A DNA stretch of 64,000 bases from the IMG/VR virus record IMGVR_UViG_3300047157_000084; one strand, given 5' to 3'. This document shows, in pieces, positions 13,202 through 29,478 of the stretch. Numbering within the stretch: the first letter of the stretch is position 1; each line of letters opens with the position of its first letter. A model generated the notes under the pieces. That model was not told where the DNA came from, ran no database searches, and saw only the letters and a list, made by a program, of their open reading frames with translations. Made by a program: the position numbers and the translations under genes. This stretch comes from an uncultured virus (IMG/VR IMGVR_UViG_3300047157_000084) (lineage: Duplodnaviria; Heunggongvirae; Uroviricota; Caudoviricetes).

Positions 13202-13202
13202 A

Positions 13203-15008: not shown

Positions 15009-15276
15009 TGACGTCTATATTAGTTACATCTGCTGTGAATCTTTTATAGGCTACTTCTTCTATTTCATCATTTAAACATCTTTTAGCTGCTTGTATATAC
15101 AACAATCGCATCCATTAATTCTTCTTGTACATCAACTAGAAAACGATTAAGATCTTTTTCTTGACCTTTTGTATCTCTTGCATCATTGTTGACCATATTT
15201 TTTTTGGCCTATTAAACTACGTTCGTCCATCTTCCTAAGTACTTGTTGAACTATTTGTCTTCTGTTTTAATCTCAT
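14989..15276 (-). CDS. Small helical protein with KKYG and QEELMD motifs (possibly MazG-superfamily-like; frameshifted)
   Basis: Manual translation across indels. Confidence 0.4.
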
Positions 15277-15818
15277 CTTTAACAAATGTTCCGTTAATCA
15301 TTTTACCAGTTCTTTTATTTATCACATCATATGCTGTTGCTATACACGTTTCAATTTTAACACCTTCTAAATGCGCTAAGTTTGTAATACTACAACTATA
15401 TCACCAATAGCATCTATAACTTCTGGTTTATCTTTTTTAACAAAGCTTTTGCAAGTTCTCCAGCTTCTTCTTGTAGTTTAACATATTGCGTGTGTGAATT
15501 ACCCTTATCGTATAATCCTCTATCTGATGCCCAGTCTCTAATGTAAATCAAACATTTTGACACTTATCAGAGCATTTAACTCTAGTTTAGGATTTTTCTG
15601 AAAGTTATAATAGCTTTATTATATACATAACTTCTATCTGTTATTAAACATAGATGTTTTAACGTTTTTCATAATCCAATTACCATGTCTGTTGTTAATT
15701 TAAATTACCAAATTCATCGTGTTTCCACGTCATACCAATGTTATCCAAACAGTTGTCCTTTAAGCTTGTTCACAGGACAAGGGAAAGTTGTGGTTTGTTC
15801 AGTTACGTTTATCTTCAT
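15270..15818 (-). CDS. MazG-like all-alpha NTP pyrophosphohydrolase with N-terminal extension (frameshifted)
   Basis: IRDWASDRGLYDKG...QYVKLQEEAGELAKA...IDAIGDIVV...AYDVINKRTGKMINGTFVK. Confidence 0.75.
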
Positions 15819-16037
15819 ATCTTTTTTGGTTTAAGGTTTTTATAAGGTACCAGATCTACTCTGTACCCATATTCTCTTTGTCTTTCTAGCTCTAAACAAG
15901 ATATATAATCTATATCTTCTGAGCTATCTAATATCTCATATTCATCAGGTCATATCCTTGTTGAACTGTGACCCGGTTATTAAGATCACAGGTAACACCG
16001 ATTTTTTTACCTGGAATATGATAAAATAATATGTCAT
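15815..16037 (-). CDS. Small protein, GIY-YIG-like N-terminus (frameshifted)
   Basis: MTYYLYHIPGKKIGVTCDLNNRV resembles Y-x-Y...K-I-G-x-T-x-D-L-x-x-R. Confidence 0.4.
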
Positions 16038-16675
16038 AATTTATCGTTGTATAAATGCATGTTGTGTGCGTGATGATAATACCATCCGACGTCAATAGAC
16101 AGTCTCTCTGCAATCATTTTCTGTAATGATGAAAATTGATATTGATCGTTACAGAAACCGTACCAGATGTCGTTAGAACGCATATAAACAGACATACATA
16201 GTTTATTATTAATTATTGTAAATTGTACTGCGTAAGTACAAGGCGTATCTTTACGATACTTCTCAAACTCTTTGCAGTCATATATACTAATAGCAGCGTG
16301 TCTAGTGTTAGGGTTATCTTTTAGTTTAGCAACCACATAATCTATTTGATTGTTACGTTGCCATTGATAACCGTAATTACTATTTACATTTCTATCACTA
16401 TTAGCCATTTTTTCCCATATAGGTGGAACCTTACCGTATAATTCACCTAGCTTGTCTATACTAGGATCGCCTGATAAGTACCATTGCCATTCAGCTTCTG
16501 CATATTCGTGAGACCATTTTCTATACTTGTTTTTAATATGATTGTCTAATGGATCTTCTATTGTAAAGCCTACATTAAACAAAGCTTTAGTATCGTCAAA
16601 GTCTACACCTTCTACTCTTAACTCATGTAGTATACAGTTGAATGCTTCGTTTGCTGTTAAAAATTTAGTTCGCAT
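16034..16675 (-). CDS. Thymidylate-synthase-fold enzyme, probable dCMP hydroxymethylase/methylase (T4 gp42-like)
   Basis: Catalytic PCT; RSNDIWYGFCND has Asp at the position of TS Asn177; NSNYG, PPIW and EWQWY motifs; likely start ATG 16675. Confidence 0.8.
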   Translation of the reverse strand: MRTKFLTANEAFNCILHELRVEGVDFDDTKALFNVGFTIEDPLDNHIKNKYRKWSHEYAEAEWQWYLSGDPSIDKLGELYGKVPPIWEKMANSDRNVNSNYGYQWQRNNQIDYVVAKLKDNPNTRHAAISIYDCKEFEKYRKDTPCTYAVQFTIINNKLCMSVYMRSNDIWYGFCNDQYQFSSLQKMIAERLSIDVGWYYHHAHNMHLYNDKL

Positions 16676-16910
16676 ATTTTTCGTAATAATATTTGTAATA
16701 ATTAAATATAACCTCCCATAGCTCTCTGGAATCATAATACTTTGGTGATCTATTGATCTTACCATTTATCTGTATATCTATATACCAGCTCATAAAGTTT
16801 TCTTTACAAAACGGAGATATATATATTCCATTATTTATACACCAGTGATAGCATTTAAACTCGTAGCTATCAAATGAGTATGAGGGCTCTTTCTTTTTGC
16901 TTTTTCTCAT
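16665..16910 (-). CDS. Hypothetical protein
   Basis: ORF packed between helicase and TS-fold gene. Confidence 0.5.
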   Translation of the reverse strand: MRKSKKKEPSYSFDSYEFKCYHWCINNGIYISPFCKENFMSWYIDIQINGKINRSPKYYDSRELWEVIFNYYKYYYEKYAN

Positions 16911-18635
16911 GCTTCCCAAGGCATAGGCTCAGTTTCATCTACAGCGTTAATCTGAGGTATAAATGAACCTGATCTAGGTTCCCACGTAAAAAACGATTCA
17001 GCGCCGTTTTCACCTAGGTTTTGAAACTTACATTTTAATACTTTTACTTTAGTATTTTTAGCTTCATAATCTCTATGTACTAATAAGCCGTGATAACTAG
17101 CATCATACCATTCACCACCACCTTTTATATTATACATTGTAGGTTCTTCAATTTTACCATCTTGGCCTTTATACATCTTAGTTGGATGTGCTACTATAAA
17201 CGTTAAAACGTCATACTTTTTACAAAAGGCTTCTATCTTTGCTAGATAATCCATAGTATATCTATTAACATCATCTGAAACTGCATTTGTATCTCTTACT
17301 TTATTATAAGGATCAATAACTAAACATTTAATACCTTTACGTTTAACAAGCTCAGCGCCTTTACGTAATACTGATTCTAAACTATATTTATCCATATCTA
17401 TAAAATAATAATTATCATTAACATGATCTGATACTTCTTTCCATTTACCACCACCTATATCACTAGGAGAAGGCATATCACCCCAGGCTTACGCATAAGC
17501 TTGTGAGCGTGTAAATATATTGGTTGCGTTTTCTGGACTAGCAAAAGCTGTCTTCCAACCATATTGTTTATTATAACCTACAACCATTTGATCAACAAAG
17601 TCAGACTTTCCGCTACTAGGTATCCCAGTAACAGTAATGAACTGACCAGTGTAAGTACTGAAAAACATCGTCAAAGTTTTTAAGACCAACTTGAAAGCCA
17701 GGTTTAAAACCATTTTTAACAAAGTCTTTAAGTTCATTTTCTATATTTTTAATGTTGTTACATTTTCTAATGGTACTTGTTGCGGCGTGTATAGCATACT
17801 TTAAAGCATCTTTACCGTGTTTAATTAAATATTCATTAGCATCTTTACAGTCTACAAAATCTACTATATAACAGTTTTCAGCACCTAGCCTACGTATAAA
17901 CTCTTGCTTTAGCATTTGACCAGGTTCATCAGCATCAACAGCTAGAATTATTCTTTCTTTATCTTCAAAGTAATCTATACAATTATCTAAGATAATCTAA
18001 GTTGTTGTGATTTAACGTTGCACCGTTAGGTACAGATATTACGTTAGGCACACCAGCCTCGTGTAAAGCTAACACATCCATTTCACCTTCTACAATTATA
18101 CACGCAACTGTCATGACCTACAATACTATTAATATTATAAAATACTTTTTCAGCTCCTTTGTATAATTTAAAATTCTTTGCTACCATCACGATATTTAAC
18201 ATTGATAAGTTGATTACCCATAAAATAATTAAACTTTATTGTATTCTCAGACTTACCAGTCTGAGGCATAAACTCAGAACCTTCAGAAACGTTTAATGCT
18301 TCTAAGAGTTTTCTGAGATATTCCTCTTGACTTAAACCATTCTACAACTTTACTACTGGGTGCTTTATAAGCTTTTGAAAAACTCGGGCGAACATATTCA
18401 CGATCGCTAGCACCCTTACGTTCGTAAGTATGTAGTTGAAAAGTTGAATCACAGTTGTGACAAGTACCGAGACCACGTTCCCAATCATAAGAAGCACATT
18501 TAGCTTCTGATTCTTAGGTTTCCTGTCGTGTGAGAACACAGAGGACAAATCCCCTGTGTTTTACCCTACTTCAAGCTTGTGTTGATTGAACTCATCAATC
18601 AAAAATCCATTGATCTCTATTTCTTCTACTTGCAT
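16907..18635 (-). CDS. Primase-helicase (T7 gp4/Twinkle-like; Zn finger + TOPRIM + SF4 helicase), multiple indels
   Basis: N-terminal Cys pairs, IVEGEMDVL, SVPNGA, AVDADEPG, KDANE, Walker A GIPSSGKS, LVIDPYN, VAHPTK. Confidence 0.9.
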
Positions 18636-18663
18636 TTAATTTAATTTAATTGTTATTCTCCAT

Positions 18664-19001
18664 TTAAAATGGTAAATCGTCTGCTTGTGCATCTCACTGC
18701 TAAAAGGGTAGATCATCTTGGTGGCAGCGCAACCGGTTGCTTGAGCCTGTTGATTATCTCTTGGAGCAGCCAACGTTTTGTCGTTTGTCCAAACTACTTT
18801 ACATTACCTAAGATAAGTTTTCAGTCTTAGCATCTCTTTCTTCTTTTGATTGTTGTACAGACACAGGACCTTGATTACCGAACTGATCTAGCTCATCATT
18901 AAGGTGATAGTAATTGGTAAGTATTTACCTTTCTTACCTTGATAATTTTATCTTTAGGTATTAGCGTTAAGGTTAATACTTGTAGCTATTATACTTGCCA
19001 T
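18664..19001 (-). CDS. Probable single-stranded DNA-binding protein with acidic DDLPF tail
   Basis: GKKGKYL, DQFGN, YLGN motifs and DDLPF* terminus (encoded twice in tandem). Confidence 0.7.
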
Positions 19002-19177
19002 ATTAATAAGTATTTAATTGGTTAAACATTCTAGACATCTGGCTTTGTAGCACCAGTGCCTCTTCTTAAATTATCAACAGCTTTTACATGTGATTGATTT
19101 GTGTAAAAATTGTTTACACTGTTGTAACGCCTGTTACGTCACAAGTTCTTTTTCTTGTTCTTGCCATATTTATTATA

Positions 19178-19908
19178 TTAAAGTGTTTTACTTATGAAAT
19201 ATTGTTTAGGATCAAAACCCTCGGATTTATAGAACAGCTCATAAGCTTTTTCTGCTCTATCTACCTTGTCTTTACCTTTTTCGTAAAACTCACTGAACAG
19301 TCAAATATACCTATTTGATGTGTTGTTTTGTCTATTACAATAAAAACCATATCATAGCCAAATAGTTTTCTGTATATGTATGCTTGTGAATCGTAGTTAT
19401 ATTTTGAAGCTGACCAGCGAAACTTATTTATATCTGCTGTAGTTTTAAATCAATAACTAATTTGTCTTCATGATTAACAATATCAGCTTTACCTTTCCAC
19501 ATATATTCACCTAGCTTTTTTACAGCTGGTACTTCGTAATCTATATTATTACCTTGTATTAAGCTTTTACAAACTTCATTGCTCATCATTTTATCTGACA
19601 TTAATTCTATACGATCAACTTCATGTTGTAATAAACATAATTCACCACCTGACATTTCTTTATATACTTTAGTATTTCTACTTGATGATTGTATTATCTT
19701 TAACTTCTTAAGCTTATCTGGCTCAAGTATACAAGTATGAAAATAACCACCTACAAGAAATGCTGATGCTAGGTTTACTTGGTTTACCAAACGCTAATGG
19801 GTTAGTAAGTAGTGTACCTATATCTGAATTACTTAGGTATTTCCTACCAAAAGCTCCATAATAATCTTCATCATTTCTAGCTTTTTTAGGATCTTCTTTT
19901 TTAGTCAT
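19178..19908 (-). CDS. PD-(D/E)XK exonuclease, RecE/ExoVIII-like (frameshifted)
   Basis: YLSNSDI, GGYFHTCILEP, WKGKADI, VIDLK, YNYDSQAYIY. Confidence 0.75.
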
Positions 19909-19909
19909 A

Positions 19910-20415
19910 CTATAATGTTATTTGTTTTTCTATTTCAGGAGTTACATTATATTTCTTCTTGATTGCATCCAGTTTACCGCCTTTTTGTACAAAGTCTTTA
20001 GCTTTCTGTATTCGCGTTCATAGTTAAACCATGAGTATTTGTGCATCACTATCTGCAGTGTCATCAATTAAAAATAAATTTCCTAAAGCATATTTCTTCC
20101 CATAAGAGATGCAGCACCAAACTTTTGAGGCATTTGCATACCTTTTTGATCTAAGATCTACACCTACTAAAGCGGTTGCGTGTATAGCAGTTTTGCCATC
20201 GTGTATAGTAGCAGTTGATTCTATAATTGGAAACGTAGTGTTGTCAATTAATGTTTCATCAACTTTTACTGATACGCCTATTCTAGTAAATAGGGTTTGT
20301 TGCTTCTAAGAATGTCTTCGGCTGATCGGAAGTTGTATTTGCCGAATGAGTTAAATCTACTTTTTTTCGATTTAAACTTTGTCTGGATCTGAGCCAGTTT
20401 TTCATTTAAAGTCAT
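19910..20415 (-). CDS. ERF-family ssDNA annealing recombinase (frameshifted)
   Basis: FGKYNFRSAEDI and QKFGAASSYGKKYALGNLFLIDD..DSD motifs. Confidence 0.8.
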
Positions 20416-20440
20416 ATTTAATTTAATTTAGTCTATATAT

Positions 20441-20469
20441 ATAATTACACATTAGTGAACACCATTTAA
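20441..20469 (-). promoter_or_regulatory. Putative class II phage promoter upstream of ERF/replication genes
   Basis: Reverse strand TTAAA-N16-GTAATTAT in the intergenic gap. Confidence 0.45.
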
Positions 20470-20488
20470 TTATTATTCACTCCATAAC

Positions 20489-21265
20489 CTAAAGATAATC
20501 AAGCACTTGCGAGTGATCTACATTATCTATTAAGCTTTTTACAGCTTGCTTTTTTAACTGCGAAACTCTAACATAAGAGCTAGACCTTCGTATACTTTAA
20601 TTCTGCTGCAATTTGCTTTAGCAATATGCTTATCACAGTCTAAACCGTAGCTTAATCTTAATACTTCATATTCTTTTTCATTTAAATATTTTCTCATTAA
20701 ACCTTTTAAATAAGTGTTTAATAATGCCATATTGTATGGTTCAGATTTATCAGGTATTTGATACATCATATCTTCATCTCATTTTAGGTTTTTCATCTAT
20801 ACTTAAAAATATAGAATTAAAAAACATTTCAACCATCTTTTTATCTTTACCAAAGTTTCTACGTATTTCATTTAGCTTATGTTCAGGTATTCTCATGTCT
20901 CCACGATTAATATCTATTGCTCTACGTATTGCCCTCTTATTCTTTTTGATAAAAAGATTTTAATGTTTTTTCTTGATCTTCAGATTCAGATAATACTGAA
21001 TAGTCTAATCTATCTACAGCTTTTGTTAAACCTGAATTACCTTCTTGTATTAAATCCATTATAGTCATTACTCCACTTGCTTGTTGTGTTGTGGAAAACT
21101 TTCTTGATAGGTTCTCTACTAAAGGTAAAAAACATATTATCATTTGCTTCTCTATTGTATATTGTAAAATCACCGTCTTTTACTTCTTAGGCAAGGTTTA
21201 TAAATACTTATCTTAATTATGTCATTTTTCCACTGAATATAATTTGCTATATTATAACTTTTCAT
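20489..21265 (-). CDS. Phage sigma-70-family sigma factor (frameshifted)
   Basis: LVENLSRKF...DLIQEGNSGLTKAVDR (region 2), AIRRAID...MRIPEH, LNEKEYEVLRLSYGL (region 4). Confidence 0.85.
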
Positions 21266-21882
21266 TTAATATTTGTTTTTCTCGTTTTAAATCATCACAC
21301 ATGTTCGATGTAAATGTTCTTGTAGAACAATTAAGTAAACCAGCTACTACTACTAATGTAATTTTTTTATTCATATCATTTAAATCTAACATGCATTGAT
21401 ATATAGCTTCTTCATCAATGTTTGATGATCTACCTATTAATTGACCTACAATTTTTAATTTTCCACTCAAGTCTAACCCAGAGTACGGTTTAAATACTAC
21501 TTTACGTAGCTTGTTTGCAGGTGGATCACCACCTTGGTTAAATACATCTTCTATCATATCATTTAATATTTTAGTTTTAATAAAAAATGTTACAAAACCA
21601 TTTTCTTTATCAGCTATAAATTTAAATATAGCATATCATCTTCTAACTGATCTTCATAATCTATCCATCTATATTTAAGATAATATAATACAAGCATGTG
21701 CCACTTTAATGATTTGTATGTAGTTATTTTAGCCTTGCTATTAAACAAGTGATAACATTGATACGTACCATCAGCGTAGTATTTATATTGTTTGGTTTCA
21801 ATAGTAGGTACATCAGTATAGGATCTCTCCTATATACGATGCGTCTATCATTTAACCATTTTATATTTCTTTCTTGTGACAT
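21252..21882 (-). CDS. Hypothetical protein with probable C-terminal HTH (regulator or replication initiator; frameshifted)
   Basis: Starts MSQERNIKW; C-terminal KITLVVVAGLLNCSTRT resembles an HTH. Confidence 0.5.
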
Positions 21883-21919
21883 TTGCCTATTACTAATTAT
21901 TCTTAATACCTTTGTCATA
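21875..21919. repeat. Dyad element copy 1 (TGTGACATT.GCCT...TACCT.TTGTCA.A)
   Basis: Shares both arms with 28816-28862; overlaps the start codon at 21882. Confidence 0.6.
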
Positions 21920-22177
21920 AAAATTAACATTAATTAATTCCATTTCTACGTTATACCATTTTCCAAGCTTTATTGATTTATCAACTAATAAATCAATTCG
22001 TGAGGTCCATCTCTTTATTCATTCTATCTTGTACGGTCCATATCCATCGAATCTGCCCGCACCTGTTACTTCTACTTTTGCGCCAAAGGTACAAACCTTC
22101 AGCTTCTAAATCTCTACTTACAGCTATCCACCTATGTCACCAGGGAACACTTCCATATTAATATGTTTACCATGCTG

Positions 22178-22736
22178 TTATAAATGTGGAGTACTATCCG
22201 TTTGTTCCGGAGTAGCATGGTATAAATTGTCGCTGTAACCAACAACATCTTTAATGTATTTAGTATCATATAGTTTTTCTTTGTTATGCGCTATATTTTT
22301 CTTCTCGTGTACGTAGTACAACCAGTACGCGTGTATAGCACAATCACGCTTATATTCATCTGGCATAGCCTGTGGTGGTTCTAAACTTACCACCTAAAGG
22401 CATACCACAGGATATTTAGCTAATGCATCTTTACATTTAGTAATTGTTAAATGTTTTTACCATATCTTTTAGTATACTCATTACCTAATGCTAACATATG
22501 ATTGATATAACCAGTAATATTTCTAGCTGTTTTGTCTACACCCATATTGTTGATGGGTGATTGTAATGAGCTTTTTTATAAGGTACCCATAGCATTGTCA
22601 TACCCAACCTCTTCAGCATAATGATGATGAGCAGTACAAAGCATTTGAGCTGATTCTAATATCATCTTTACAACATGCTTATTATATTGTACTTTGCAGC
22701 TTTTACTGGATCTTTATCTAAATAAAATATATTCAT
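22178..22736 (-). CDS. Pyrimidine-dimer DNA glycosylase-like (DenV/Pyr_excise family; frameshifted)
   Basis: MNIFYLD.DP, KHVVKMILESAQML, HYNHPSTIW, EYTKRYGKKH, PPQAMPDEYK. Confidence 0.8.
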
Positions 22737-22835
22737 TTGTATCTTTTGTTTTCTAATCTATTATAATGTTTGTCTAATAAGAGGTTTGCTACCTCTTCTG
22801 ATATTAAGTTGTCGTTGTATAATTGCCATATTAGT

Positions 22836-23711
22836 TTACTCATAATTACGTATGCATTTAAATAGCGGGTGTCTGTATGAACCTGCTTTAGTACGTTGAA
22901 AAGTAAGTAAAGGTAGCACGTTGCCAATATAATCACCAATGTTATCAGTAGCATATTAGCTAGATCCTTGTAGGTATAGCCTTTGCCCGGTGGACAACCG
23001 AACTGTTACCTTCGTCATCTTGCATTATGAACTTGCCGAGCGTGCCTGTCCTTTTACCTTTACCTAATTCATAACCTATGATAGTTGCTTCAGTATCGCT
23101 GAAGTCTTTGAATTTCATTAAGATCGTAAGACCTACCGTGCTTGTATAAGCCATCTAGCCTTATGATAGAGCCTTCGTAACCTTGATCAAGATATTCTTT
23201 GTGTAATGTTCTAGCATAATTGTAGGAATCTACGAGCTTTGCTGGAACATATTTGACACAGCATTATATATGTCTGAGGTTACTAGATTATTCATACGAG
23301 TTTGTAGCTGTCATACTGCACACCATCGAAATAATCGTAGCAATGAAACTGAGTTAGATTTTTAGCATCTAATTCTGTCTTCATCGGTAGGTTTTTGCTT
23401 ACGAACTAGTGATATAATTTTTCGAAGTCATCTTTCAGATCATGATTGTATAACTCGCCATCGAGTATAACATCAGGTTGATGAAAGAAAAATGGTTTTA
23501 AACTATCGAGTATATGTTTTATGTTTTTAAATTCTTTACCTGTTCTTGAATATGCTTTTACGCTGAACGAGGCTAAGTTTTCTTGGTCAGGAAGGTCTGA
23601 CACACGTTTTATTAGGCAGCGAACGCCGTCTAATTTAGGTTGTATATACACAGGTTGAGACCAGTCTACTCGTTTGTCGTCATACTTGTGTGCTAACATT
23701 GGTTTTATCAT
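22836..23711 (-). CDS. ATP-dependent DNA ligase (frameshifted)
   Basis: KPMLA, motif I QPKLDGVRC, LDGELY, YEGSII, LMKFK, OB-fold end RHPLFKCIRNYE*. Confidence 0.9.
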
Positions 23712-23714
23712 AGG

Positions 23715-23998
23715 TTATTTAATTTATTTTGTATTATTTCTAGTTTTCTTTTTATAATTGCTGCTTTTATGTATTCTTCTTTGTCTTCATACATTGACTA
23801 GTAGTGTATTAGTCTAGCTATTTCAGATATAAGAAACTCTTCTTCTGTTTCTTTAAATGGTACAAAGCCATTTATTATATCATTGATAGACATAGGTGTT
23901 TGAGCATGAACTTCATTTTTCATTTTATAAAGAAGTTTGTCTAGCACTAAATCTGCAATTGTATCTAACATTTTATCATCTATATTATCCAGATTCAT
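23715..23998 (-). CDS. Hypothetical protein, possible C-terminal UVR-like helix (EEYIKAAIIK)
   Basis: ORF 23798..23998 extended across an indel. Confidence 0.35.
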
Positions 23999-24006
23999 TC
24001 GTATTT
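23983..24006 (-). promoter_or_regulatory. Class I phage promoter motif AAATACGA-N8-GGATAATA
   Basis: One of 7 fixed-spacing copies. Confidence 0.7.
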
Positions 24007-24087
24007 AATTTGTGTTACCTTGGTTATTAGGGTTGTTTACAAAGTCAGTATATTCAAACTTATCTGAGACCATTTTTTAATATATCA

Positions 24088-24477
24088 TCAGGTTTTGCTT
24101 ACAAATACACAAGAGTTTGTATATTGATTCCAGCAAGTTATCCATACATCAGGTTTACCTGTCCATATAATATAAGTGTAATTATGATCTATATTTTCGT
24201 GAGATGGATATAAGTATTGACTATTGTAATGAAAGTCTTTTACTAAGTGTGATGCTACTCTTGATCCGTCACCGAACTGAGTAAAACCTTTTACTTCTTG
24301 CATGTGCTTAACCCAGTTAGCAAGCTCTACAGCTCTGTATTCAGGGTAACCATCATGATGTAAATACATATTTACATAGCTATAGTCACTGACTACACTT
24401 GGATCACAAGCAAAGCCTAGGTCATTATCTTCCGCAGCCGACCTTGGTACTACCATTGTTACATTTCTTGTTGACAT
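24088..24477 (-). CDS. Hypothetical early protein with YxHxDGYP motif
   Basis: YLHHDGYPE. Confidence 0.6.
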   Translation of the reverse strand: MSTRNVTMVVPRSAAEDNDLGFACDPSVVSDYSYVNMYLHHDGYPEYRAVELANWVKHMQEVKGFTQFGDGSRVASHLVKDFHYNSQYLYPSHENIDHNYTYIIWTGKPDVWITCWNQYTNSCVFVSKT

Positions 24478-24478
24478 A

Positions 24479-24769
24479 TTAATCTAGTAATTTCATATAA
24501 GCTTTAGGATTAGTATCTCTAAACCAGTCCATACCTTTTATTAATTCTTTTCTTAGTTTAGTTATATATGGGTCTTCTATATTTGAGTCGCTGTCAAACG
24601 TTACTTCTATAGTATATGTAGCACCCATTATAAAATCATACATACTAGCTTCTGCTCCGGTTAATAGGCAACTTTCACCACTAAATGGGTTAGTTACCTC
24701 TTCTGGTGAGCTATACCAGGCGCCTTTGAACCACTCTGGTTTAGTTTGTTGTTTCAATGTATCCTTCAT
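24479..24769 (-). CDS. Hypothetical early protein
   Basis: Intact ORF in operon. Confidence 0.55.
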   Translation of the reverse strand: MKDTLKQQTKPEWFKGAWYSSPEEVTNPFSGESCLLTGAEASMYDFIMGATYTIEVTFDSDSNIEDPYITKLRKELIKGMDWFRDTNPKAYMKLLD

Positions 24770-25196
24770 CTATTAGTATATCTTTAATTTCTTGTTCTTG
24801 TATTTCACAAATACTCTGGTATATCTCGCTGAACATATCTGAGTACCAGTACTCATCTATAAAGTCAGATGCTACATATATTTCTTCGCATCCGCCGCCT
24901 CTGATAGCATCTTCTAGCTCTGTAGCTAAATTATTATCATAGTAATGCACGTGTTCACCTACACATATATTTCTATCGTCGTAAGTGGCAACAAATACCT
25001 CATAACCATCAGCTGTGTTTTCTGGATAACAATAGAAGTCTGCATTGCTGGTGTAGTCGTCGTGTATAGCAACGTCATAGTATTTTAATACTGCCGCTTG
25101 TACAAACTCTTCATCTTGAAGCTTATCACCGTCAGTTGGTAAACCTCTTTTGATCATTTCTTTTTCTATGATCTCGTCTGTTATATACTTTTTCAT
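24741..25196 (-). CDS. Acidic hypothetical early protein
   Basis: Intact ORF, strongly Asp/Glu-rich. Confidence 0.6.
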   Translation of the reverse strand: MKKYITDEIIEKEMIKRGLPTDGDKLQDEEFVQAAVLKYYDVAIHDDYTSNADFYCYPENTADGYEVFVATYDDRNICVGEHVHYYDNNLATELEDAIRGGGCEEIYVASDFIDEYWYSDMFSEIYQSICEIQEQEIKDILIDEGYIETTN

Positions 25197-25432
25197 GATT
25201 TATCAATTATTTTTTCGCCATACATAAAGCTGTAAGAGTCTAGTTTCCAGCTGTCTAGGTTACCATAAGTCAATAGATCTCTGATTTGGTCGACTTGTAG
25301 TTCTGACCACATCATTTTAGACATAAGAGTATACTTAAGTCTTTTTGCAGTACTGTACTTTCTTGCACTAGCCTGCAATTCTGTTTTAACGTCGGGCAAT
25401 AGCATGTCGTAGACGGATTTAATTTTAGTCAT
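25193..25432 (-). CDS. Hypothetical early protein
   Basis: Intact ORF directly downstream of class I promoter. Confidence 0.55.
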   Translation of the reverse strand: MTKIKSVYDMLLPDVKTELQASARKYSTAKRLKYTLMSKMMWSELQVDQIRDLLTYGNLDSWKLDSYSFMYGEKIIDKS

Positions 25433-25459
25433 ATTTATTATTTAATTTAATTACGTATT

Positions 25460-25483
25460 TATTATCCTATTGTCATCGTATTT
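25460..25483 (-). promoter_or_regulatory. Class I phage promoter motif
   Basis: Plus strand TATTATCC-tattgtca-TCGTATTT. Confidence 0.7.
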
Positions 25484-25494
25484 AGGATGTGTTG

Positions 25495-25567
25495 TTGCGG
25501 TAGAAGGATTCGAACCAACGACCTCATGGTTATGAGCCATGCGAGCTGACCACTGCTCTATACCGCA
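25495..25567 (-). tRNA. tRNA-Met (CAT), initiator-like D stem, no encoded CCA
   Basis: TGCGGTA/TACCGCA acceptor stem, GAGC/GCTC D stem, CATGG-CTCATAA-CCATG anticodon arm, TTCGAAT T loop (two U-U mismatches in T stem). Confidence 0.85.
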
Positions 25568-25575
25568 TTGTATTA

Positions 25576-25663
25576 AGAGAGATGTGCCCACGAAGCGCTT
25601 CGTTTACGTAAACCCGCCGTTGTTTGTTGGACAAGTATATCTCTGCATATCTGCCATCTCTCT
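25576..25663 (-). ncRNA. Putative structured small RNA B
   Basis: 9-bp closing stem AGAGAGATG/CATCTCTCT, inner TGTCCA/TGGGCA helix, CGAAGCGCTTCG hairpin; fills gap between tmRNA-like RNA and tRNA. Confidence 0.5.
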
Positions 25664-25665
25664 GT

Positions 25666-25790
25666 TGGTGGAAGTGGGCGGAATCGAACCGCCGTTTATA
25701 ACTGTCACTACGACTGGCTTTGTACAACTGATACAAGCTTGAAGCCAAGACGTCGATTTACTGTTAGGTTATACTTACCTTATCACTCCC
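25666..25790 (-). ncRNA. Minimal tmRNA-like RNA (tRNA-like domain only, G3-U70, encoded CCA)
   Basis: GGGAGTG/CACTTCC-A-CCA acceptor; stemless D loop; TATAAC/GTTATA helix; AAC linker; GGCGG-TTCGATT-CCGCC T arm; ~65-nt hairpin instead of anticodon arm or tag ORF. Confidence 0.75.
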
Positions 25791-25793
25791 TTT

Positions 25794-25871
25794 TCGAGGC
25801 ACCAGTCGCGGACCGGTACTAACTAGTATTATGCTTTATCCGCGCTTTTGACCAGTATGCCGCCGCCTCGA
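25794..25871 (-). ncRNA. Putative structured small RNA A
   Basis: TCGAGGC/GCCTCGA closing stem, CGCGGA/TCCGCG inner helix, TACTA-gt-TAGTA hairpin; GC-rich in an AT-rich genome. Confidence 0.5.
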
Positions 25872-25928
25872 TTGCTAGCTATTCACTTATGTGATGGAGC
25901 ACCTCTTTTTAGAACCATCCTAATTAAG

Positions 25929-26120
25929 TTACTCGTCTAGCTTATTTTGTTCGTGTATTTCTACAGCTTTTCTAATATCTTCTATATTATAATCTATTAG
26001 TATTCTGTATGCTTTTTTATTTTCTTGGCCTATACCTGCTGCGGCCATTTCTTTATCTGCTTGCAGTGAAGCTTTAATTTCTTCTTGCATTTCATACCAT
26101 GCTTTTACTGAATCACTCAT
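25929..26120 (-). CDS. Hypothetical early protein
   Basis: Intact ORF overlapping neighbour. Confidence 0.5.
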   Translation of the reverse strand: MSDSVKAWYEMQEEIKASLQADKEMAAAGIGQENKKAYRILIDYNIEDIRKAVEIHEQNKLDE

Positions 26121-26320
26121 GATTTTATGTATTTATTAGCGAGTTTACCGATAACGAGCTGCATCAAGTAACTATGAGCTTCGTTTATATCTGGTGTAGA
26201 GCTTAGTAATGATTTAGCATCGCTACCGGTTAATGTCCACTCGCATATTCTGTATATTTCTTCTACTGCTTCATGTGTAGCTTTGTCAGCTAACATATCA
26301 AATTCTTTAGTTTTACTCAT
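26117..26320 (-). CDS. Hypothetical early protein
   Basis: Intact ORF with AACTATG start context. Confidence 0.55.
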   Translation of the reverse strand: MSKTKEFDMLADKATHEAVEEIYRICEWTLTGSDAKSLLSSTPDINEAHSYLMQLVIGKLANKYIKS

Positions 26321-26333
26321 AGTTTTATATTTA

Positions 26334-26543
26334 TTATCTTAGACATGTGCCATAACCTCGTCGAGCGCCTAGCTTTCTTACACGTTTCGCCTGTTCTTTC
26401 GGCATAATCTGAATGGTATTACCGGTTTTGTGGTAAGTGATAGCAATACAGCCATATGGTTGAGTAGTGCTACATTCGACGCAAGAGGTATAACCTAGTG
26501 CTAGACGCTGCGGAGGTATTATATTTTTACATTTACATTTCAT
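26334..26543 (-). CDS. DksA/TraR-type C4 zinc-finger protein
   Basis: CKCKNIIPPQRLALGYTSCVEC matches C..C..IP..RL.....C..C. Confidence 0.6.
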   Translation of the reverse strand: MKCKCKNIIPPQRLALGYTSCVECSTTQPYGCIAITYHKTGNTIQIMPKEQAKRVRKLGARRGYGTCLR

Positions 26544-26550
26544 ACAATAT

Positions 26551-26574
26551 TATTATCCAATTTTATTCGTATTT
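26551..26574 (-). promoter_or_regulatory. Class I phage promoter motif
   Basis: Plus strand TATTATCC-aattttat-TCGTATTT. Confidence 0.7.
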
Positions 26575-26981
26575 ATATTGTGTACGTAGTTTCTTAGGTA
26601 AAATTCTAGCATATATTGTAATCTTGCCATACCGCTATATATTTTAGCTCTTGAAATAGTTGTATATTTTTTAGTTATAGTCTTGTCACCTTCTAAAAAT
26701 ACCCACCTTTTTTCACGTTTATACGTAGGATTTAGTTGATAATTAGATGAACAAGAGTTTTGGTTTCTAACATAGCCAGTTTTAAAGCAAGCTAATCTTA
26801 GTTTGTTGCTATTTGGCCATGTTTTTCTTGATGGTACAGGGAATTCGAACTCTCTTGTGCCATTTATTGCTTGTCTTTGTGTAGTTACTTCACGAATATT
26901 GTACTCGATTAGTAATGCTCTTGCAAAAGAGTCTTCTAACATTTGTTGTTCTTGTCGCCAAGTGTATTTATTTATACTCAT
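26553..26981 (-). CDS. Hypothetical basic early protein
   Basis: Intact 142-aa ORF with AACTATG start. Confidence 0.55.
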   Translation of the reverse strand: MSINKYTWRQEQQMLEDSFARALLIEYNIREVTTQRQAINGTREFEFPVPSRKTWPNSNKLRLACFKTGYVRNQNSCSSNYQLNPTYKREKRWVFLEGDKTITKKYTTISRAKIYSGMARLQYMLEFYLRNYVHNINTNKIG

Positions 26982-26983
26982 AG

Positions 26984-27238
26984 TTAATTATTATATTGTT
27001 TACGCCATGACATTTCATCGCTGTGTGGTGCATATTTATTCCAGTGATCTACTACTTTGTTAGTCCAACCACCATATTCTTTGTCAACCGCTGCATTAAT
27101 TAGCTCTAGTTGACGTCTACCTGACTCGTAATATCTATTATCATCACTCATACAGTAAGTAAAGTCGTGCTGCTTGATCATATCGAAAGCAGGTAAATCA
27201 TCAAAGTATATTGGTTTATTCGACATAGCTAATACCAT
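26984..27238 (-). CDS. Hypothetical early protein with HDFTYCMSDD motif
   Basis: H-D-x-x-Y-x-x-S-D-D motif common in small phage proteins. Confidence 0.55.
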   Translation of the reverse strand: MVLAMSNKPIYFDDLPAFDMIKQHDFTYCMSDDNRYYESGRRQLELINAAVDKEYGGWTNKVVDHWNKYAPHSDEMSWRKQYNN

Positions 27239-27364
27239 TTATAGTTATATATTTAGACCACTCTTTTGCATAAGGCACTCTGTCGTGCATTACACCGTCA
27301 ACTAATACACTTTGTGGTACGTTGTGTACATTATAGTTTAAGTATTTTATTGTTTTCATATTAT

Positions 27365-27388
27365 TATTATCCAACTTTGTTCGTATTT
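27365..27388 (-). promoter_or_regulatory. Class I phage promoter motif
   Basis: Plus strand TATTATCC-aactttgt-TCGTATTT. Confidence 0.7.
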
Positions 27389-28073
27389 ATATTGTATTTT
27401 CTATACCAAGCGTCTTCTATCATCATTATTTCTCGACGAGTTAGCTTGATAATCTTCTTACTTGTATGTTTTCTAGAGCGTGCCATAGTGTACATCAGTA
27501 TATTCTTCAACAGTTACCCATTTCTCTATTTCATTAGAGTATATCATTCCGTCAATTACATGCTCGTCACTAAACGACCATAGTTTCTCGTGTTTAAATT
27601 TTCTCATAGTTTATTAGTTTTTTGATAGAATTTAATTCTTTGTTCTACATCTTGACGAGTCAGCTCGCCTTCCATTTGTCTACCGATATAGTAAGTCATA
27701 TCTATTTGCTTACCATTTTCACAAGTTAATATCCACTGCATAATTATATAGTTACACCGTTAAACACTATCTGATAAGACATGAAGATTATACCTGTTGT
27801 TGCTAGTGGTAGTAAGAAACCAAAAGCTACTGCTTCACATATTAGTTCAAATACTGGCTTACCTTTTACATAGTTGTACACTTTGTTCTGTACGAATTTA
27901 ATTTTACTCATAGTTATTTATTTATTTAGATTAGTGAAATTCATTGTATATTGCTAAAACTTCTCTTTGTTCTAACTTAGTTAATTGAAATACATTTTTT
28001 TCTGGGAATAGTTGCTTAGCTATTCTATTTAATTAAAGCTGATTGATTATACATATTATTAAGATTTTATTAG

Positions 28074-28114
28074 TTGACATGGTGAGAATCGAACTCACAT
28101 TAACCATTATGTCA
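28074..28114 (-). ncRNA. tRNA minihelix-like element (acceptor stem + T arm, no anticodon arm)
   Basis: TGACATA-ATGGTTAAT-GTGAG-TTCGATT-CTCAC-CATGTCA-A. Confidence 0.6.
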
Positions 28115-28173
28115 TTTTACTCATTCACAATTTATACTGTTAGAAACAAGTGGAACTCACAGTGAAGTTAAAG

Positions 28174-28401
28174 TTATACTAACTCTTTACCTCTTACTGC
28201 TAATGGAATATTGTTAGTAGCAGTGTATGACTTGTACTTTAACCAACATGGTAAGTTAGTTAGTGTATCTTTCATGATAGAATATACTTTGTCATGATTG
28301 TAAATTATCTTGTCACCTTTTTTGTTAGTGAATTCAAATGTTACATTTTTGCCAATTAGTGATTGTCTTACAACAAATCTTTTAGTGATTAAATTACTCA
28401 T
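28174..28401 (-). CDS. Hypothetical early protein
   Basis: Intact ORF directly downstream of class I promoter at 28440-28463. Confidence 0.6.
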   Translation of the reverse strand: MSNLITKRFVVRQSLIGKNVTFEFTNKKGDKIIYNHDKVYSIMKDTLTNLPCWLKYKSYTATNNIPLAVRGKELV

Positions 28402-28439
28402 AGTTATTATATTTATTTATTATTATTTAGTTACATTAT

Positions 28440-28463
28440 TATTATCCATATTACTTAGTATTT
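28440..28463 (-). promoter_or_regulatory. Class I phage promoter motif (AAATACTA variant)
   Basis: Plus strand TATTATCC-atattact-TAGTATTT. Confidence 0.65.
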
Positions 28464-28604
28464 ATTATGTGTGTAAAGTGGATACTTTGTTTAGTTATTG
28501 TTTATTAGTTAGTAGTATTCCACACTGTCTCACAACTTCTAAATTAGTTTGGAAATTAAATGTGTTTACTATTATCATATTATATTGTTTGTTACTTACA
28601 TATC

Positions 28605-28628
28605 TATTATCCATTTGTAATAGTATTT
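28605..28628 (-). promoter_or_regulatory. Class I phage promoter motif (AAATACTA variant)
   Basis: Plus strand TATTATCC-atttgtaa-TAGTATTT. Confidence 0.65.
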
Positions 28629-28685
28629 ATTATGTGAGTGTAATATAAATTAGTTAGTGAAGTGAATTGATGCTATACACATGGT

Positions 28686-28709
28686 AAACACGAAATCCTA
28701 TGGATAATA
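28686..28709 (+). promoter_or_regulatory. Class I phage promoter motif, rightward copy
   Basis: AAACACGA-aatcctat-GGATAATA. Confidence 0.55.
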
Positions 28710-28815
28710 AGGTAAAGCAAGGCGGGGCCCGTCAATATATATTCATTTTTCTTTTTTAAAAGTTTTAGTGAGTAGTAGGGGCAACCCTATACCCCATTAT
28801 ATCTTATGCTTTTTT

Positions 28816-28862
28816 TGTGACATTAGCCTTTAATAGTATATAAGTAACTACCTATTGTCACA
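28816..28862. repeat. Dyad element copy 2 at the divergent strand switch
   Basis: TGTGACATTAG...CTATTGTCACA (10/11 inverted match); similar to 21875-21919. Confidence 0.6.
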
Positions 28863-28866
28863 CTCT

Positions 28867-28894
28867 TTAAATATACTTTATTTTGTGTAATTAT
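28867..28894 (+). promoter_or_regulatory. Putative class II promoter at start of late arm
   Basis: TTAAA-N15-GTAATTAT, 27 nt before ATG 28922. Confidence 0.5.
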
Positions 28895-28921
28895 TATAAC
28901 ATAAGATAAATACTAAAATCT

Positions 28922-29155
28922 ATGCCAAAGCAAAAACTATCCAAACGCGCGGCTCTGGCTAAAAAGAAAAGAGATCTCGCTACAGCAAACAGTCCTAGAC
29001 GTAAAGCTATGAGAGCTGAAAACCAGAGATTAAGACGTGCTAGAAAGAAAGCAGGTAAAAGCTTAAAAGGCTTAGATTATGACCATAAAACCAAAAGGTT
29101 TACAACAGTAAAAAAGAACCGTGGAAACAGAGGACACGGTACAAAGAAAGAATAA
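28922..29155 (+). CDS. Small basic protein with degenerate HNH-like motif
   Basis: GLDYDHK...KKNRG. Confidence 0.5.
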   Translation: MPKQKLSKRAALAKKKRDLATANSPRRKAMRAENQRLRRARKKAGKSLKGLDYDHKTKRFTTVKKNRGNRGHGTKKE

Positions 29156-29187
29156 CCAAACCTCTGATAACCTAAAAAACCTAAATT

Positions 29188-29478
29188 ATGACGTTTTTTT
29201 ACAAGACTAGTACGTGGAATAGTCAACCACAAATTACCCAACAAACCGTTGATATTTGGAAGCATTTAGCTTCTAAGAAGAACTGGAGAATAGTTCAACT
29301 ACCCAACGGATTTTTTCAAACCGAATACCATGACATCGAAGATAAAGATGTATGGCACGACGTTACAAGACGTGAGACAATTAAAGGGGCGGAAGCTGCT
29401 ATTGATGGATCAGTCGAACATTACAACAAAAAGCTTGAGTTTATCAAAGGCCCAAAGGTTGTAAAAACATTTAAATAA
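29188..29478 (+). CDS. Hypothetical protein
   Basis: Intact ORF. Confidence 0.6.
   Translation: MTFFYKTSTWNSQPQITQQTVDIWKHLASKKNWRIVQLPNGFFQTEYHDIEDKDVWHDVTRRETIKGAEAAIDGSVEHYNKKLEFIKGPKVVKTFK

What the first reader, a model, noticed from the sequence alone, without database searches (positions are those of the whole stretch)
25666..25790. Minimal tmRNA mimic: alanyl-acceptor tRNA-like domain with no mRNA-like domain
Seen (minus strand): GGGAGUG AUAAGGUAAG UAUAAC [~65-nt hairpin: CGAC/GUCG, UGGCUU/AAGCCA, UGUAU/GUACA] GUUAUA AAC GGCGG UUCGAUU CCGCC CACUUCC A CCA. Established: G3-U70 plus A73 is the AlaRS identity, and a stemless GG-containing D loop, helix 2a, 3-nt linker and T arm define the SmpB-binding tRNA-like domain of tmRNA; normal tmRNAs are ~350 nt with a tag ORF, and tag-less forms are known mainly from some mitochondria. 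No tag ending in ...AA-stop and no anticodon loop is present here. Inference: a phage RNA that sequesters SmpB/EF-Tu to block trans-translation, rescues stalled ribosomes without a degradation tag, or decoys tRNA-targeting defence nucleases.
Basis: partly seen in the sequence, partly recalled or inferred. Interest (0 to 1): 0.9.

Follow-up and report, generated by a model that had tools for sequence, protein, structure and literature searches.

The report
Phage tag-less mini-tmRNA carrying cargo hairpin
A marine phage carries a real 125-base gene for only the alanine-accepting, tRNA-like end of the bacterial ribosome-rescue RNA (tmRNA), a kind already known from one mycobacteriophage; here the usual small cap is replaced by a separate, mobile RNA hairpin.

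Summary
Window 25666-25790 (minus strand) encodes a 125-nt RNA with a 7-bp acceptor stem (G3:U70, A73, CCA), a stemless GG loop, a helix, an AAC linker and a T arm. It has no anticodon arm and no tag frame.

It belongs to a family of at least 28 distinct sequences (76-125 nt) in related uncultured marine phages. In these the acceptor, T stem and helix 2a covary, and U70 opposite G3 is kept in 28 of 28. Rfam's tmRNA model is the best match but stays under threshold (35.5 bits against 47).

It is a message-less, TLD-only tmRNA. That kind is in print for mycobacteriophage DS6A (PMC4131195, PMC11915505), and this scan has met it on other DNA (e.g. e1-5923009, e1-5895389).

Two things are new:
- The elbow is shortened (UAAG...AAAC in place of UUCGAC...GGAC).
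- The 65-nt "hairpin" is a conserved RNA module that stands alone in 21 other viral contigs. Only here does it sit in the helix-2a cap, which behaves as a slot for at least three such modules.

The function was not tested. It most likely is alanylated and competes with host tmRNA-SmpB. The main rival reading is a processing signal or scaffold in a mosaic island of small RNAs. Interest is moderate.

The parts
25666..25790 (-). Whole 125-nt RNA gene: tmRNA-like tRNA-like domain (TLD) with module D in its cap
   Evidence: Sequence; RF00023 35.5 bits over model 1-374; own model R1 77.4 bits
25784..25790 (-). Acceptor stem, 5' strand GGGAGUG (RNA positions 1-7)
   Evidence: Pairs with 25670-25676. 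Paired in 100% of cells in 28 sequences, with 4:69 switching AU (23) to CG (5)
25774..25783 (-). D-loop analogue AUAAGGUAAG (positions 8-17), no D stem; its GG would meet the T loop
   Evidence: Sequence. Its invariance in alignment A2 was partly forced by the search pattern. Relatives found independently of the pattern show GGUGAG and GGUAUUGAC variants
25768..25773 (-). Helix 2a, 5' strand UAUAAC (positions 18-23); also serves as closing helix P1 of module D
   Evidence: Pairs 18:94 to 22:90 each show 2-4 standard pair types with changes on both sides
25703..25767 (-). Module D core (positions 24-88): conserved irregular hairpin, non-coding
   Evidence: The same core, nearly invariant, stands alone in 21 of 22 viral contigs fetched by pattern. 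In the 17-sequence alignment 7 of 7 closing-helix pairs covary. No Rfam match
25697..25702 (-). Helix 2a, 3' strand GUUAUA (positions 89-94)
25694..25696 (-). Linker AAC (positions 95-97), in the place of tmRNA's GGAC
   Evidence: Invariant in 28 of 28 and not part of the search pattern. 20 of 21 other phage TLD-only RNAs also end this segment with AC
25677..25693 (-). T arm GGCGG-UUCGAUU-CCGCC (positions 98-114)
   Evidence: 100% paired; two pairs change on both sides in 5 of 28 sequences
25666..25676 (-). Acceptor 3' strand CACUUCC (U70 at 25672), discriminator A73, encoded CCA
   Evidence: U70 in 28 of 28, although C would also have passed my pairing filter. CCA is encoded in 1 of 28 (the window); 25 have CUA and 2 have CAA
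25570..25665 (-). Module C: a ~96-nt structured RNA between the TLD and tRNA-Met (neighbour, not part of the TLD)
   Evidence: 10 unique sequences in 22 instances. In 9 of these, aligned, the long-range helix has one compensatory pair and a GU switch
25494..25567 (-). tRNA-Met (CAT), next gene downstream on the same strand
   Evidence: ARAGORN; RF00005 65.1 bits
25791..25893 (-). Upstream conserved non-coding modules A (about 25871-25893) and B (about 25791-25870)
   Evidence: Shared with relatives in varying combinations. The module B hairpin has 2 compensatory pairs in 12 sequences. Assembly contigs break at 25793 and 25893

Best explanation
This is a phage gene for a message-less (CDS-less, 'TLD-only') tmRNA-like RNA.

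Shown:
- It is a conserved structured RNA with a tRNA-type acceptor/T-arm stack, the alanine identity pair G3:U70 with A73, a stemless GG loop and a covarying helix 2a.
- It has no anticodon arm, no pseudoknots and no tag frame.
- Its cap is free to vary. In this phage the cap holds a separate conserved RNA module (D).

Inferred:
- The RNA is cut out of a multi-RNA transcript by host RNase P and 3' processing. CCA is added where it is not encoded.
- Host AlaRS charges it with alanine and EF-Tu binds it.
- Through its shortened elbow (G17 and A96-C97 in the places of tmRNA G19 and A334-C335) it engages host SmpB.
- It then competes with host tmRNA. It either titrates SmpB or enters stalled ribosomes without offering a message, so host tagging and the linked decay of phage products are blunted.
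- The cap points away from the ribosome, as the whole pseudoknot ring does in tmRNA. That is why it tolerates cargo.
For: Structure and family.

Alanine identity:
- U70 opposite G3 in 28 of 28 sequences, while the neighbouring pair 4:69 covaries.
- 13 of 13 R1 hits of 50 bits or more in loci fetched through module D, not through the TLD pattern, also have G3:U70.

tmRNA rather than tRNA:
- RF00023 is the best clan member at the element in 16 of 20 relatives' loci, at 32.4-39.9 bits.
- The 3' part of a 76-nt family member (L249) has its best blastn hits in annotated tmRNA genes of Streptomyces phages.
- A canonical-elbow 82-nt TLD-only RNA (L418) holds the same slot in the same module mosaic and scores 64.7 bits, above Rfam's threshold.
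- Elbow forms grade from GGAC (12 of 21) to CAAC, GAAC and GCAC among other phage mini-TLDs.

No message: helix 2a plus cap ranges from 28 to 132 nt in 30 unique sequences, with unrelated caps.

Precedent in print:
- PMC11915505 says the same.
- SmpB contacts A15, U17, G19 and A334 of the elbow (PMC8363625).
Against: - No alanylation, SmpB binding or effect on tagging was or could be tested.
- The canonical GAC...GGAC elbow, present in 33 of 33 bacterial tmRNAs examined, is absent. The mapping of G17 and A96-C97 onto SmpB-contact residues is my inference.
- The Rfam score is under threshold, and ordinary genomes give similar sub-threshold RF00023 hits at 77-nt loci (33.1 bits).
- The same phage group carries anticodon-less tRNA-like RNAs without G3:U70: window 28071-28114, L220, L426, and the A3-U70 forms L197 and L280:1418-1500. 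So a tRNA-like shape alone has some other use here.
- No SmpB, AlaRS or other translation gene was found among 86 window ORFs.
- G3 itself was fixed by my search pattern in alignment A2.
- RNA-library contigs do not prove transcription.
Confidence: 0.5

Rival explanations
1. Processing signal and scaffold. The tRNA-like domain mainly recruits RNase P and RNase Z to cut a long transcript, releasing and stabilising the neighbouring small RNAs (modules A-D) and the downstream mRNA. In this phage it serves as a natural tRNA scaffold for module D. Alanylation would be incidental.
For: - The element lies in a mosaic island of conserved structured RNAs whose order and presence vary.
- Three modules (D, E, F) occur both free-standing and inside TLD caps.
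- Other anticodon-less tRNA-like minihelices without alanine identity occur in the same phages.
- Most family members lack an encoded CCA and end ACUA like the neighbouring tRNAs, so they go through tRNA 3' processing.
- No promoter-like or terminator-like site was called on the minus strand around the island.
Against: - A cutting signal does not need G3:U70. Yet the wobble pair is kept in 28 of 28, and in 13 of 13 independently retrieved members, while its neighbour covaries.
- The elbow loop and the AAC linker are invariant although the helix next to them is free.
- The TLD persists where modules C, D and the tRNA are absent: L250, L272, L255, L246 and L270 run straight into an ORF region.
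Confidence: 0.25
2. An alanine acceptor or decoy outside trans-translation. Examples are bait for host nucleases or toxins that attack tRNA acceptor ends or elbows, a sink for AlaRS or EF-Tu, or an Ala donor for a non-ribosomal transferase.
For: - The conserved acceptor stem with Ala identity and the conserved elbow.
- The non-canonical elbow could mean that SmpB is not the partner.
- Phage tRNA-like RNAs without known function have precedent: T4 RNAC and RNAD, 'biological roles are unknown' (PMC3014915).
Against: - There is no anticodon loop, the usual target of defence nucleases.
- No transferase or defence-related gene was recognised nearby: 0 Pfam families in the 15 ORFs from 23798 to 29478.
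- Positional equivalence with a canonical TLD-only RNA points to the tmRNA pathway.
Confidence: 0.1
3. A working miniature tmRNA whose 65-nt insert encodes a short tag. One frame is open through the insert and ends in UAG UGA.
For: Reading the sequence, one frame runs to adjacent UAG UGA codons. At a lowered threshold ARAGORN offers a permuted tmRNA with tag ADKA.
Against: - ARAGORN's tmRNA mode finds nothing at default.
- The insert is module D, which in 21 other contigs stands outside any TLD. It is conserved at nucleotide level with paired covariation, not codon-wise.
- Relatives' caps are unrelated and as short as about 13 nt.
- There is no pseudoknot and no Ala-type resume context.
Confidence: 0.02
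4. An intron-containing tRNA (tRNA-Thr, anticodon AGU, 49-nt insertion in the anticodon loop).
For: The single-sequence MFE draws a D-like hairpin and an anticodon-like stem.
Against: - Those two helices are paired in only 49.1% and 40.7% of cells across the 28-sequence family. Acceptor and T stems are at 100%, and the first five helix-2a pairs are kept in 21-26 of 28 sequences each.
- The stems overlap the covarying helix 2a.
- No intron family matches.
- Alanine identity clashes with a Thr anticodon.
- ARAGORN at default calls no tRNA here.
Confidence: 0.02

Closest known systems
CDS-less 'TLD only' tmRNA of Mycobacterium phage DS6A (tmRNA Website tmID 11587; Hudson, Lau and Williams 2014, PMC4131195; also PMC11915505)
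   Same: Phage-borne. Little more than the tmRNA tRNA-like domain, with no tag frame. By the papers' statements a similar molecule inhibits endogenous tmRNA, perhaps by titrating SmpB.
   Different: I did not fetch the DS6A sequence, so homology is not tested. The host group differs (actinobacterial phage against a probable marine Flavobacteriia phage). Here the elbow is shortened and a 65-nt foreign RNA module sits in the cap. The primary source, Mao et al. 2009, was not readable here.
Full-length bacterial tmRNA (Rfam RF00023) with SmpB
   Same: Acceptor stem with G3:U70 and A73, a stemless GG loop, helix 2a, a short linker ending in AC, and a T arm. Like many host tmRNA genes seen, most family members lack an encoded CCA.
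   Different: No message, no pseudoknots and no helix 5. About 125 nt against 350-400 nt. UUCGAC...GGAC is replaced by UAAG...AAAC. It scores 35.5 bits, below Rfam's gathering score of 47.
Message-less organellar tmRNAs (jakobid and oomycete mitochondria, RF02544; two ~65-bp plastid genes; PMC11915505, PMC3590771 seen in a search listing only)
   Same: A natural tmRNA reduced to the tRNA-like domain, apparently without a tag reading frame.
   Different: Those arose by reductive evolution of a cell's own tmRNA, with a matching organelle-targeted SmpB. This one is a virus gene that must act on the host's system.
T4 RNAC and RNAD, small stable RNAs transcribed from the phage tRNA region (PMC3014915, passage read)
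   Same: Phage small RNAs of unknown role that are encoded and processed with tRNA genes. They are the nearest described analogue of the island of modules A-F around this TLD.
   Different: No sequence or structure comparison was made. The T4 RNAs are not reported there as tmRNA-like.
t-elements of plant mitochondria, tRNA-like processing signals (named in earlier scan notes e1-5355550 and e1-5796666; papers not read here)
   Same: An acceptor/T-arm mimic without an anticodon that recruits tRNA-processing enzymes. This fits the non-Ala minihelices at 28071-28114 and in L220, L426 and L429.
   Different: t-elements need no aminoacylation identity. The element studied keeps G3:U70 and A73 strictly.

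Membership tests
tmRNA (functional, RF00023) | 7-bp acceptor stem with G3:U70 and discriminator A73 (AlaRS identity) | tested here: met
   U70 in 28 of 28 family members, and in 13 of 13 strong hits retrieved independently of the pattern
tmRNA (functional, RF00023) | T arm with a UUCGAnU-type loop, and a stemless D-loop analogue with GG | tested here: met
tmRNA (functional, RF00023) | Conserved elbow ...(U)UCGAC / GGAC, holding the SmpB-contact residues (A15, U17, G19, A334 in PMC8363625) | tested here: inconclusive
   The motif is present in 33 of 33 bacterial tmRNAs examined. Here it reads UAAG / AAAC: five 5' and three 3' model positions are deleted in the Rfam alignment. An invariant G17 and A96-C97 could stand for G19 and A334-C335, but that is inference only
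tmRNA (functional, RF00023) | mRNA-like domain with resume codon and tag frame | tested here: not met
   ARAGORN tmRNA mode finds none at default. The insert is non-coding module D, and caps are unrelated among relatives
tmRNA (functional, RF00023) | Pseudoknots PK1-PK4 and helix 5 | tested here: not met
   300 inner model positions are replaced by 63 nt
tmRNA (functional, RF00023) | Rfam gathering score (47 bits) | tested here: not met
   35.5 bits. Relatives score 32.4-39.9 bits. A canonical-elbow relative, L418, scores 64.7 bits
TLD-only (CDS-less) tmRNA of phages (DS6A type) | tmRNA tRNA-like domain alone, with no tag frame, encoded by a phage | tested here: met
   The class definition is taken from PMC4131195 and PMC11915505
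TLD-only (CDS-less) tmRNA of phages (DS6A type) | Binds SmpB and/or inhibits host trans-translation | not testable with these tools
   Needs binding and reporter assays
TLD-only (CDS-less) tmRNA of phages (DS6A type) | Sequence homology to the DS6A RNA | not tested
   The DS6A record was not fetched. A blastn of a 76-nt family member against 50,697 phage records matched only T-arm/acceptor stretches of 23-30 nt in 10 records
tRNA, including intron-containing tRNA (RF00005) | D stem and anticodon stem-loop | tested here: not met
   ARAGORN at default finds none. The candidate stems are paired in 49.1% and 40.7% of cells in the family. ARAGORN -i alone calls tRNA-Thr with a 49-nt intron
tRNA-like processing signal (t-element type) | An acceptor/T-arm mimic that is cleaved by RNase P and RNase Z, with no need for aminoacylation | tested here: inconclusive
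   The shape is compatible, and most relatives lack an encoded CCA. But the strict G3:U70 is not explained by this role. Cleavage is not testable here

The most novel reading that the evidence does not exclude
The helix-2a cap of phage TLD-only tmRNAs is a cargo slot. Phages shuffle self-contained structured RNA modules (D, E, F) between free-standing positions and the cap. The alanylated tmRNA mimic would then act as a natural tRNA-type carrier. It would stabilise and process the cargo RNA, and with SmpB and EF-Tu could even deliver it to stalled host ribosomes. A companion idea is a division of labour between chargeable TLDs (G3:U70, short elbow) and unchargeable ones (A3-U70, canonical elbow), found in tandem in L280.
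Probability: 0.15. Interest if true: 0.8.

Novelty: new variant of a known kind. Interest (0 to 1): 0.5.

Why it matters
If these RNAs bind SmpB, phages of abundant marine bacteria routinely switch off or redirect the host's main ribosome-rescue and protein-tagging pathway with an RNA of about 80 nt. That would be a counter-host device so far documented by one mycobacteriophage example.

This sub-family gives a natural mutational series:
- canonical, intermediate and shortened elbows;
- chargeable and non-chargeable acceptor stems;
- caps from about 13 nt to more than 100 nt.

The series could define what SmpB, AlaRS and the ribosome really require of the tRNA-like domain. The module swapping in the cap, and the surrounding island of unknown structured RNAs, point to an unexplored layer of small-RNA biology in phage tRNA regions.

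Tried and rejected
- The whole genome of the window is not held.
None had a TLD 3' half, so they are chance matches and say nothing about hosts.
- Cultured phages:
  - A 521-nt query matched only tRNA-Met genes.
  - A 76-nt family member matched only 23-30-nt T-arm/acceptor stretches.
  - Model R1 found nothing in Flavobacterium phage elemoE MT497078.1. That was one record with no positive control, so it shows nothing.
- Phages related through GroEL: of 80 loci only L156, L157 and L163 carry the strong family. Many loci do not reach the syntenic region, so absence is not shown.
- The promoter/terminator scan of 25100-26400 gave one promoter-like site on the plus strand (fewer than in shuffles) and no terminator. 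It covers sigma-70 promoters only, which may not suit the likely host.
- Stop-codon recoding (TAG=Q, TGA=W) does not join the fragmented ORFs at 11-24 kb.
- Expression: six RNA runs hold 0.21-0.36 of the sampled words. The three RNA runs that I laid (X15-X17) are contigs only, so they give neither ends, strand nor level. Depth peaks over the conserved modules also occur in the DNA run, and parts without cover mean nothing.
- Pfam on 86 ORFs found no SmpB, aminoacyl-tRNA synthetase, CCA-adding enzyme or RNase.
- No complex or structure prediction was run, because the tools take proteins only.
- Literature: six answered searches found no description of a wider phage TLD-only family beyond DS6A. 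Subscription papers, including Mao et al. 2009, are outside the library.

Full report
WHAT IS THERE

On the minus strand, window 25790 to 25666 reads as follows:
- GGGAGUG, the acceptor 5' strand
- AUAAGGUAAG, a loop with GG and no D stem
- UAUAAC, the helix 5' strand
- a 65-nt insert
- GUUAUA, the helix 3' strand
- AAC, a linker
- GGCGG-UUCGAUU-CCGCC, the T arm
- CACUUCC, the acceptor 3' strand
- A, then CCA

G3 lies opposite U70.

ARAGORN finds only the tRNA-Met gene 98 nt downstream, at 25494-25567. Rfam at gathering level also finds only that tRNA. With the E-value threshold on 25300-26200 the element matches the tmRNA model RF00023 from first to last position, with 300 inner positions deleted. 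The score is 35.5 bits against a gathering score of 47. That score alone is weak evidence, because ordinary bacterial genomes give 33-bit RF00023 hits at 77-nt loci.

THE PHAGE

The window is phage DNA. It encodes GroEL/GroES, ribonucleotide reductase, thymidylate synthase, tail fibres and virion proteins. GC content is 33%. No whole genome is held for it.

A structural protein (58376-59485) matches 85 phage records. Of these, 84 are named for Flavobacterium (68), Cellulophaga (15) or Maribacter (1), at about 35% identity for the twelve best records listed. The best GroEL hits are also Bacteroides and Flavobacterium phages, at 41%. The host is therefore probably a marine member of the Flavobacteriia; this is inference.

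THE FAMILY

A scan of viral contigs for the element's first 17 bases, with two positions left free, returned 52 loci.
- 41 of them, plus the window, hold a complete element. That gives 32 unique sequences.
- The other 11 are unrelated matches or, in one case (L261), a degenerate copy.

I aligned 28 sequences of 76-125 nt (alignment A2). I left out two long ones (L243 at 141 nt, L248 at 180 nt), a tandem pair read as one (L271) and a false positive (L276).

On the tmRNA-type structure:
- 87.2% of cells pair, against 72.5% in shuffles. 0 of 500 shuffles reach this, and slid controls give 43-53%.
- Acceptor and T stems are 100% paired.
- Pair 4:69 is AU in 23 sequences and CG in 5. Two T-stem pairs switch on both sides in 5.
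- Every one of the eight helix-2a pairs shows changes on both sides.
- U70 opposite G3 is kept in 28 of 28.

G3 itself was fixed by my pattern, but U70 was not. A C at position 70 would also have passed my pairing filter.

Retrieval that did not use the TLD pattern agrees:
- Three syntenic copies lie about 3.9 kb upstream of GroEL in the closest relatives, L156, L157 and L163. My filter did require G3:U70.
- 13 hits of 50 bits or more for my model R1 lie in loci fetched through the insert motif, and all have G3:U70.

Rfam picks tmRNA, not tRNA, as the best clan member at the element in 16 of 20 relatives' loci, at 32.4-39.9 bits. Three more give partial matches of about 19-20 bits. In L280 the match falls on a tandem neighbour instead.

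CCA is encoded only in the window (1 of 28). 25 sequences read CUA and 2 read CAA after A73, like the neighbouring tRNA genes. So 3' trimming and CCA addition are implied.

NOT AN ARTEFACT

Fourteen DNA runs hold at least half of the sampled words of 25300-26300.

In one viral-metagenome run, overlapping contigs cover the element with 0-1 differences. The same run also holds a sister form in which 32 other letters replace the insert. A 196-nt contig from an RNA library of another study covers 25664-25803 in one piece with 2 differences. Because these are contigs, they show presence but not transcription.

WHAT KIND OF THING

A second scan added more.

Among loci L001-L154 there are 29 unique G3:U70 candidates under 200 nt. 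ARAGORN of them tRNA. The other 21 are TLD-only RNAs of 68-138 nt.
- 12 of the 21 have the canonical ...CGAC / GGAC elbow.
- The other 9 have reduced forms, including GGUAAG...CAAC and GGUUAG...GAAC, which resemble the window.
- 20 of the 21 keep AC just before the T stem.

So the window's UAAG...AAAC elbow is one end of a graded series within phage TLD-only RNAs.

In L418 a canonical-elbow 82-nt TLD-only RNA sits in the same mosaic, directly after modules A and D. It scores 64.7 bits on RF00023, above threshold. That argues that the two elbow types are positional equivalents.

L429 (GGUAUUGAC) and L418 (GGUUUUGAC) recall the UUGAC elbows of three Bacteroidota tmRNAs. All 33 bacterial tmRNAs that I inspected have GAC...GGAC.

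Guyomar et al. report the following (passages read in PMC8363625):
- SmpB's Trp122 inserts into a pocket formed by A15, U17 and A334.
- G19 packs on SmpB.
- A G19C change abolishes binding.

The window family keeps an invariant G at the end of the loop and A-C in the linker. That these stand for G19 and A334-C335 is my inference, not a test.

THE INSERT IS A SEPARATE MODULE

The 65-nt insert recurs in viral contigs. A pattern scan gave 22 loci, and 21 carry the same core; L415 is a chance hit. In all 21 it stands alone, closed by its own helix. In 9 of them it lies 106-223 nt downstream of the start of a TLD. Only in the window is it inside the TLD.

In an alignment of 17 sequences the core is almost invariant, with 51 invariant columns. 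All 7 pairs of the closing helix change on both sides: UAUAAC/GUUAUA, ACCGGC/GCCGGU, CCCGGC/GCCGGG, ACCACC/GGUGGU and UUACU/AGUAA. In the window, helix 2a of the TLD doubles as that closing helix.

No Rfam family matches the module.

Two other modules behave the same way:
- F forms the cap in L262 and is free-standing in L280 and L285.
- The motif CGGAAGUGUAUUAC (E) is in the caps of L243 and L248 and lies outside the TLD in 9 other sequence contexts.

Helix 2a plus cap spans 28-132 nt in 30 unique sequences. Hence there is no conserved message, and the cap tolerates cargo.

RIVAL FOLDS

With introns allowed, ARAGORN calls the element tRNA-Thr(AGU) with a 49-nt intron. The single-sequence MFE draws a similar cloverleaf.

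The D-like and anticodon-like stems that this needs are paired in only 49.1% and 40.7% of family cells. They also clash with the covarying helix 2a. I reject this reading.

One frame through the insert ends in UAG UGA. Given what the insert is, I also reject a tag.

CONTEXT

The element lies in an island of non-coding modules whose order varies among relatives. In the window the order is A, B, TLD (holding D), C, tRNA-Met. Modules B and C have modest covariation support.

The same phages carry anticodon-less tRNA-like minihelices without G3:U70: window 28071-28114, and L220, L426 and L429. They also carry TLD-like RNAs with A3-U70. One of these sits in tandem with a G3:U70 TLD in L280.

This keeps a processing or scaffold role alive as the main rival. 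That role, however, does not explain the strict G3:U70.

WHAT IS KNOWN

- Hudson, Lau and Williams 2014 list DS6A as 'TLD only'. They say a similar molecule, chargeable or not, strongly inhibits tmRNA, perhaps by titrating SmpB, citing Mao et al. 2009 (passages read).
- The 2025 tmRNA database paper repeats this, and adds CDS-less forms in mitochondria and two plastids (passage read).
- My six answered searches found no description of a broad phage family, of the short elbow, or of cap cargo.
- Earlier notes of this scan report the same class on other DNA.

VERDICT

This is a real gene and a new variant of a known kind. The mechanism is inferred.

Noticed in passing
window 25570-25665 (-); relatives e.g. 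L156:5904-5999: Module C is a ~96-nt conserved non-coding RNA between the TLD and tRNA-Met. Its long-range helix switches AGAGAGAUG/CAUCUCUCU to AGAGGGGUG/CACCUCUCU in some relatives. There are 10 unique sequences in 22 instances, and no Rfam match.
   Followed up: partly
window about 25791-25893 (-): Upstream modules A (cacataagtgaat...) and B. B has a hairpin GCGCGGA/UCCGCG that covaries with GUGUGGA/UCCACA, and a loop holding the palindrome ACUAGU. They are present in different combinations in relatives. Assembly contigs break at their borders.
   Followed up: partly
window 28071-28114 (-); L156:8534-8624; L220:2764-2807; L426:643-689; L429:385-434: A second class of 44-50-nt anticodon-less tRNA-like minihelices: an acceptor stem of 6-7 bp, a GG loop and a T arm, with an ACUA/UCUA-type 3' tail in most copies. 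They have no helix 2a and no G3:U70. They may be processing signals.
   Followed up: partly
L280:1418-1500 (in tandem with L280:1501-1599); L197:2705-2842: TLD-like RNAs with A3-U70, so no alanine identity. L280's copy has a canonical GAC/GGAC elbow and sits directly upstream of a G3:U70 short-elbow TLD.
   Followed up: partly
L243, L248 (TLD caps); L156, L235, L249, L252, L278, L409 (outside): The motif CGGAAGUGUAUUAC recurs inside TLD caps and upstream of module A. Its GGAAGUG can pair with the TLD's 3' acceptor strand CACUUCC, which gives a possible alternative 5' end.
   Followed up: no
module D core, window 25745-25752 (-) and relatives: An 8-nt self-complementary stretch is kept self-complementary through changes: CAAGCUUG, CCUUAAGG, CCUUGAGG and CUUCGAGG. 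It could be a kissing or dimerisation site, or a site read at the DNA level.
   Followed up: no
window 11400-24000 (-): Many genes look broken. The ribonucleotide reductase large subunit changes frame near 12.0 kb. The small subunit is in two pieces (13758-13976 and 14144-14422). Ligase and PDDEXK genes are fragments. Reading TAG as Q or TGA as W does not join them. Possible causes are indel errors, introns or real decay.
   Followed up: partly
window 25698-25774, run X2: The same sample holds a sister phage whose TLD carries a different 32-nt cap at this place, at depth 211. Cap variants therefore co-occur in one population.
   Followed up: no
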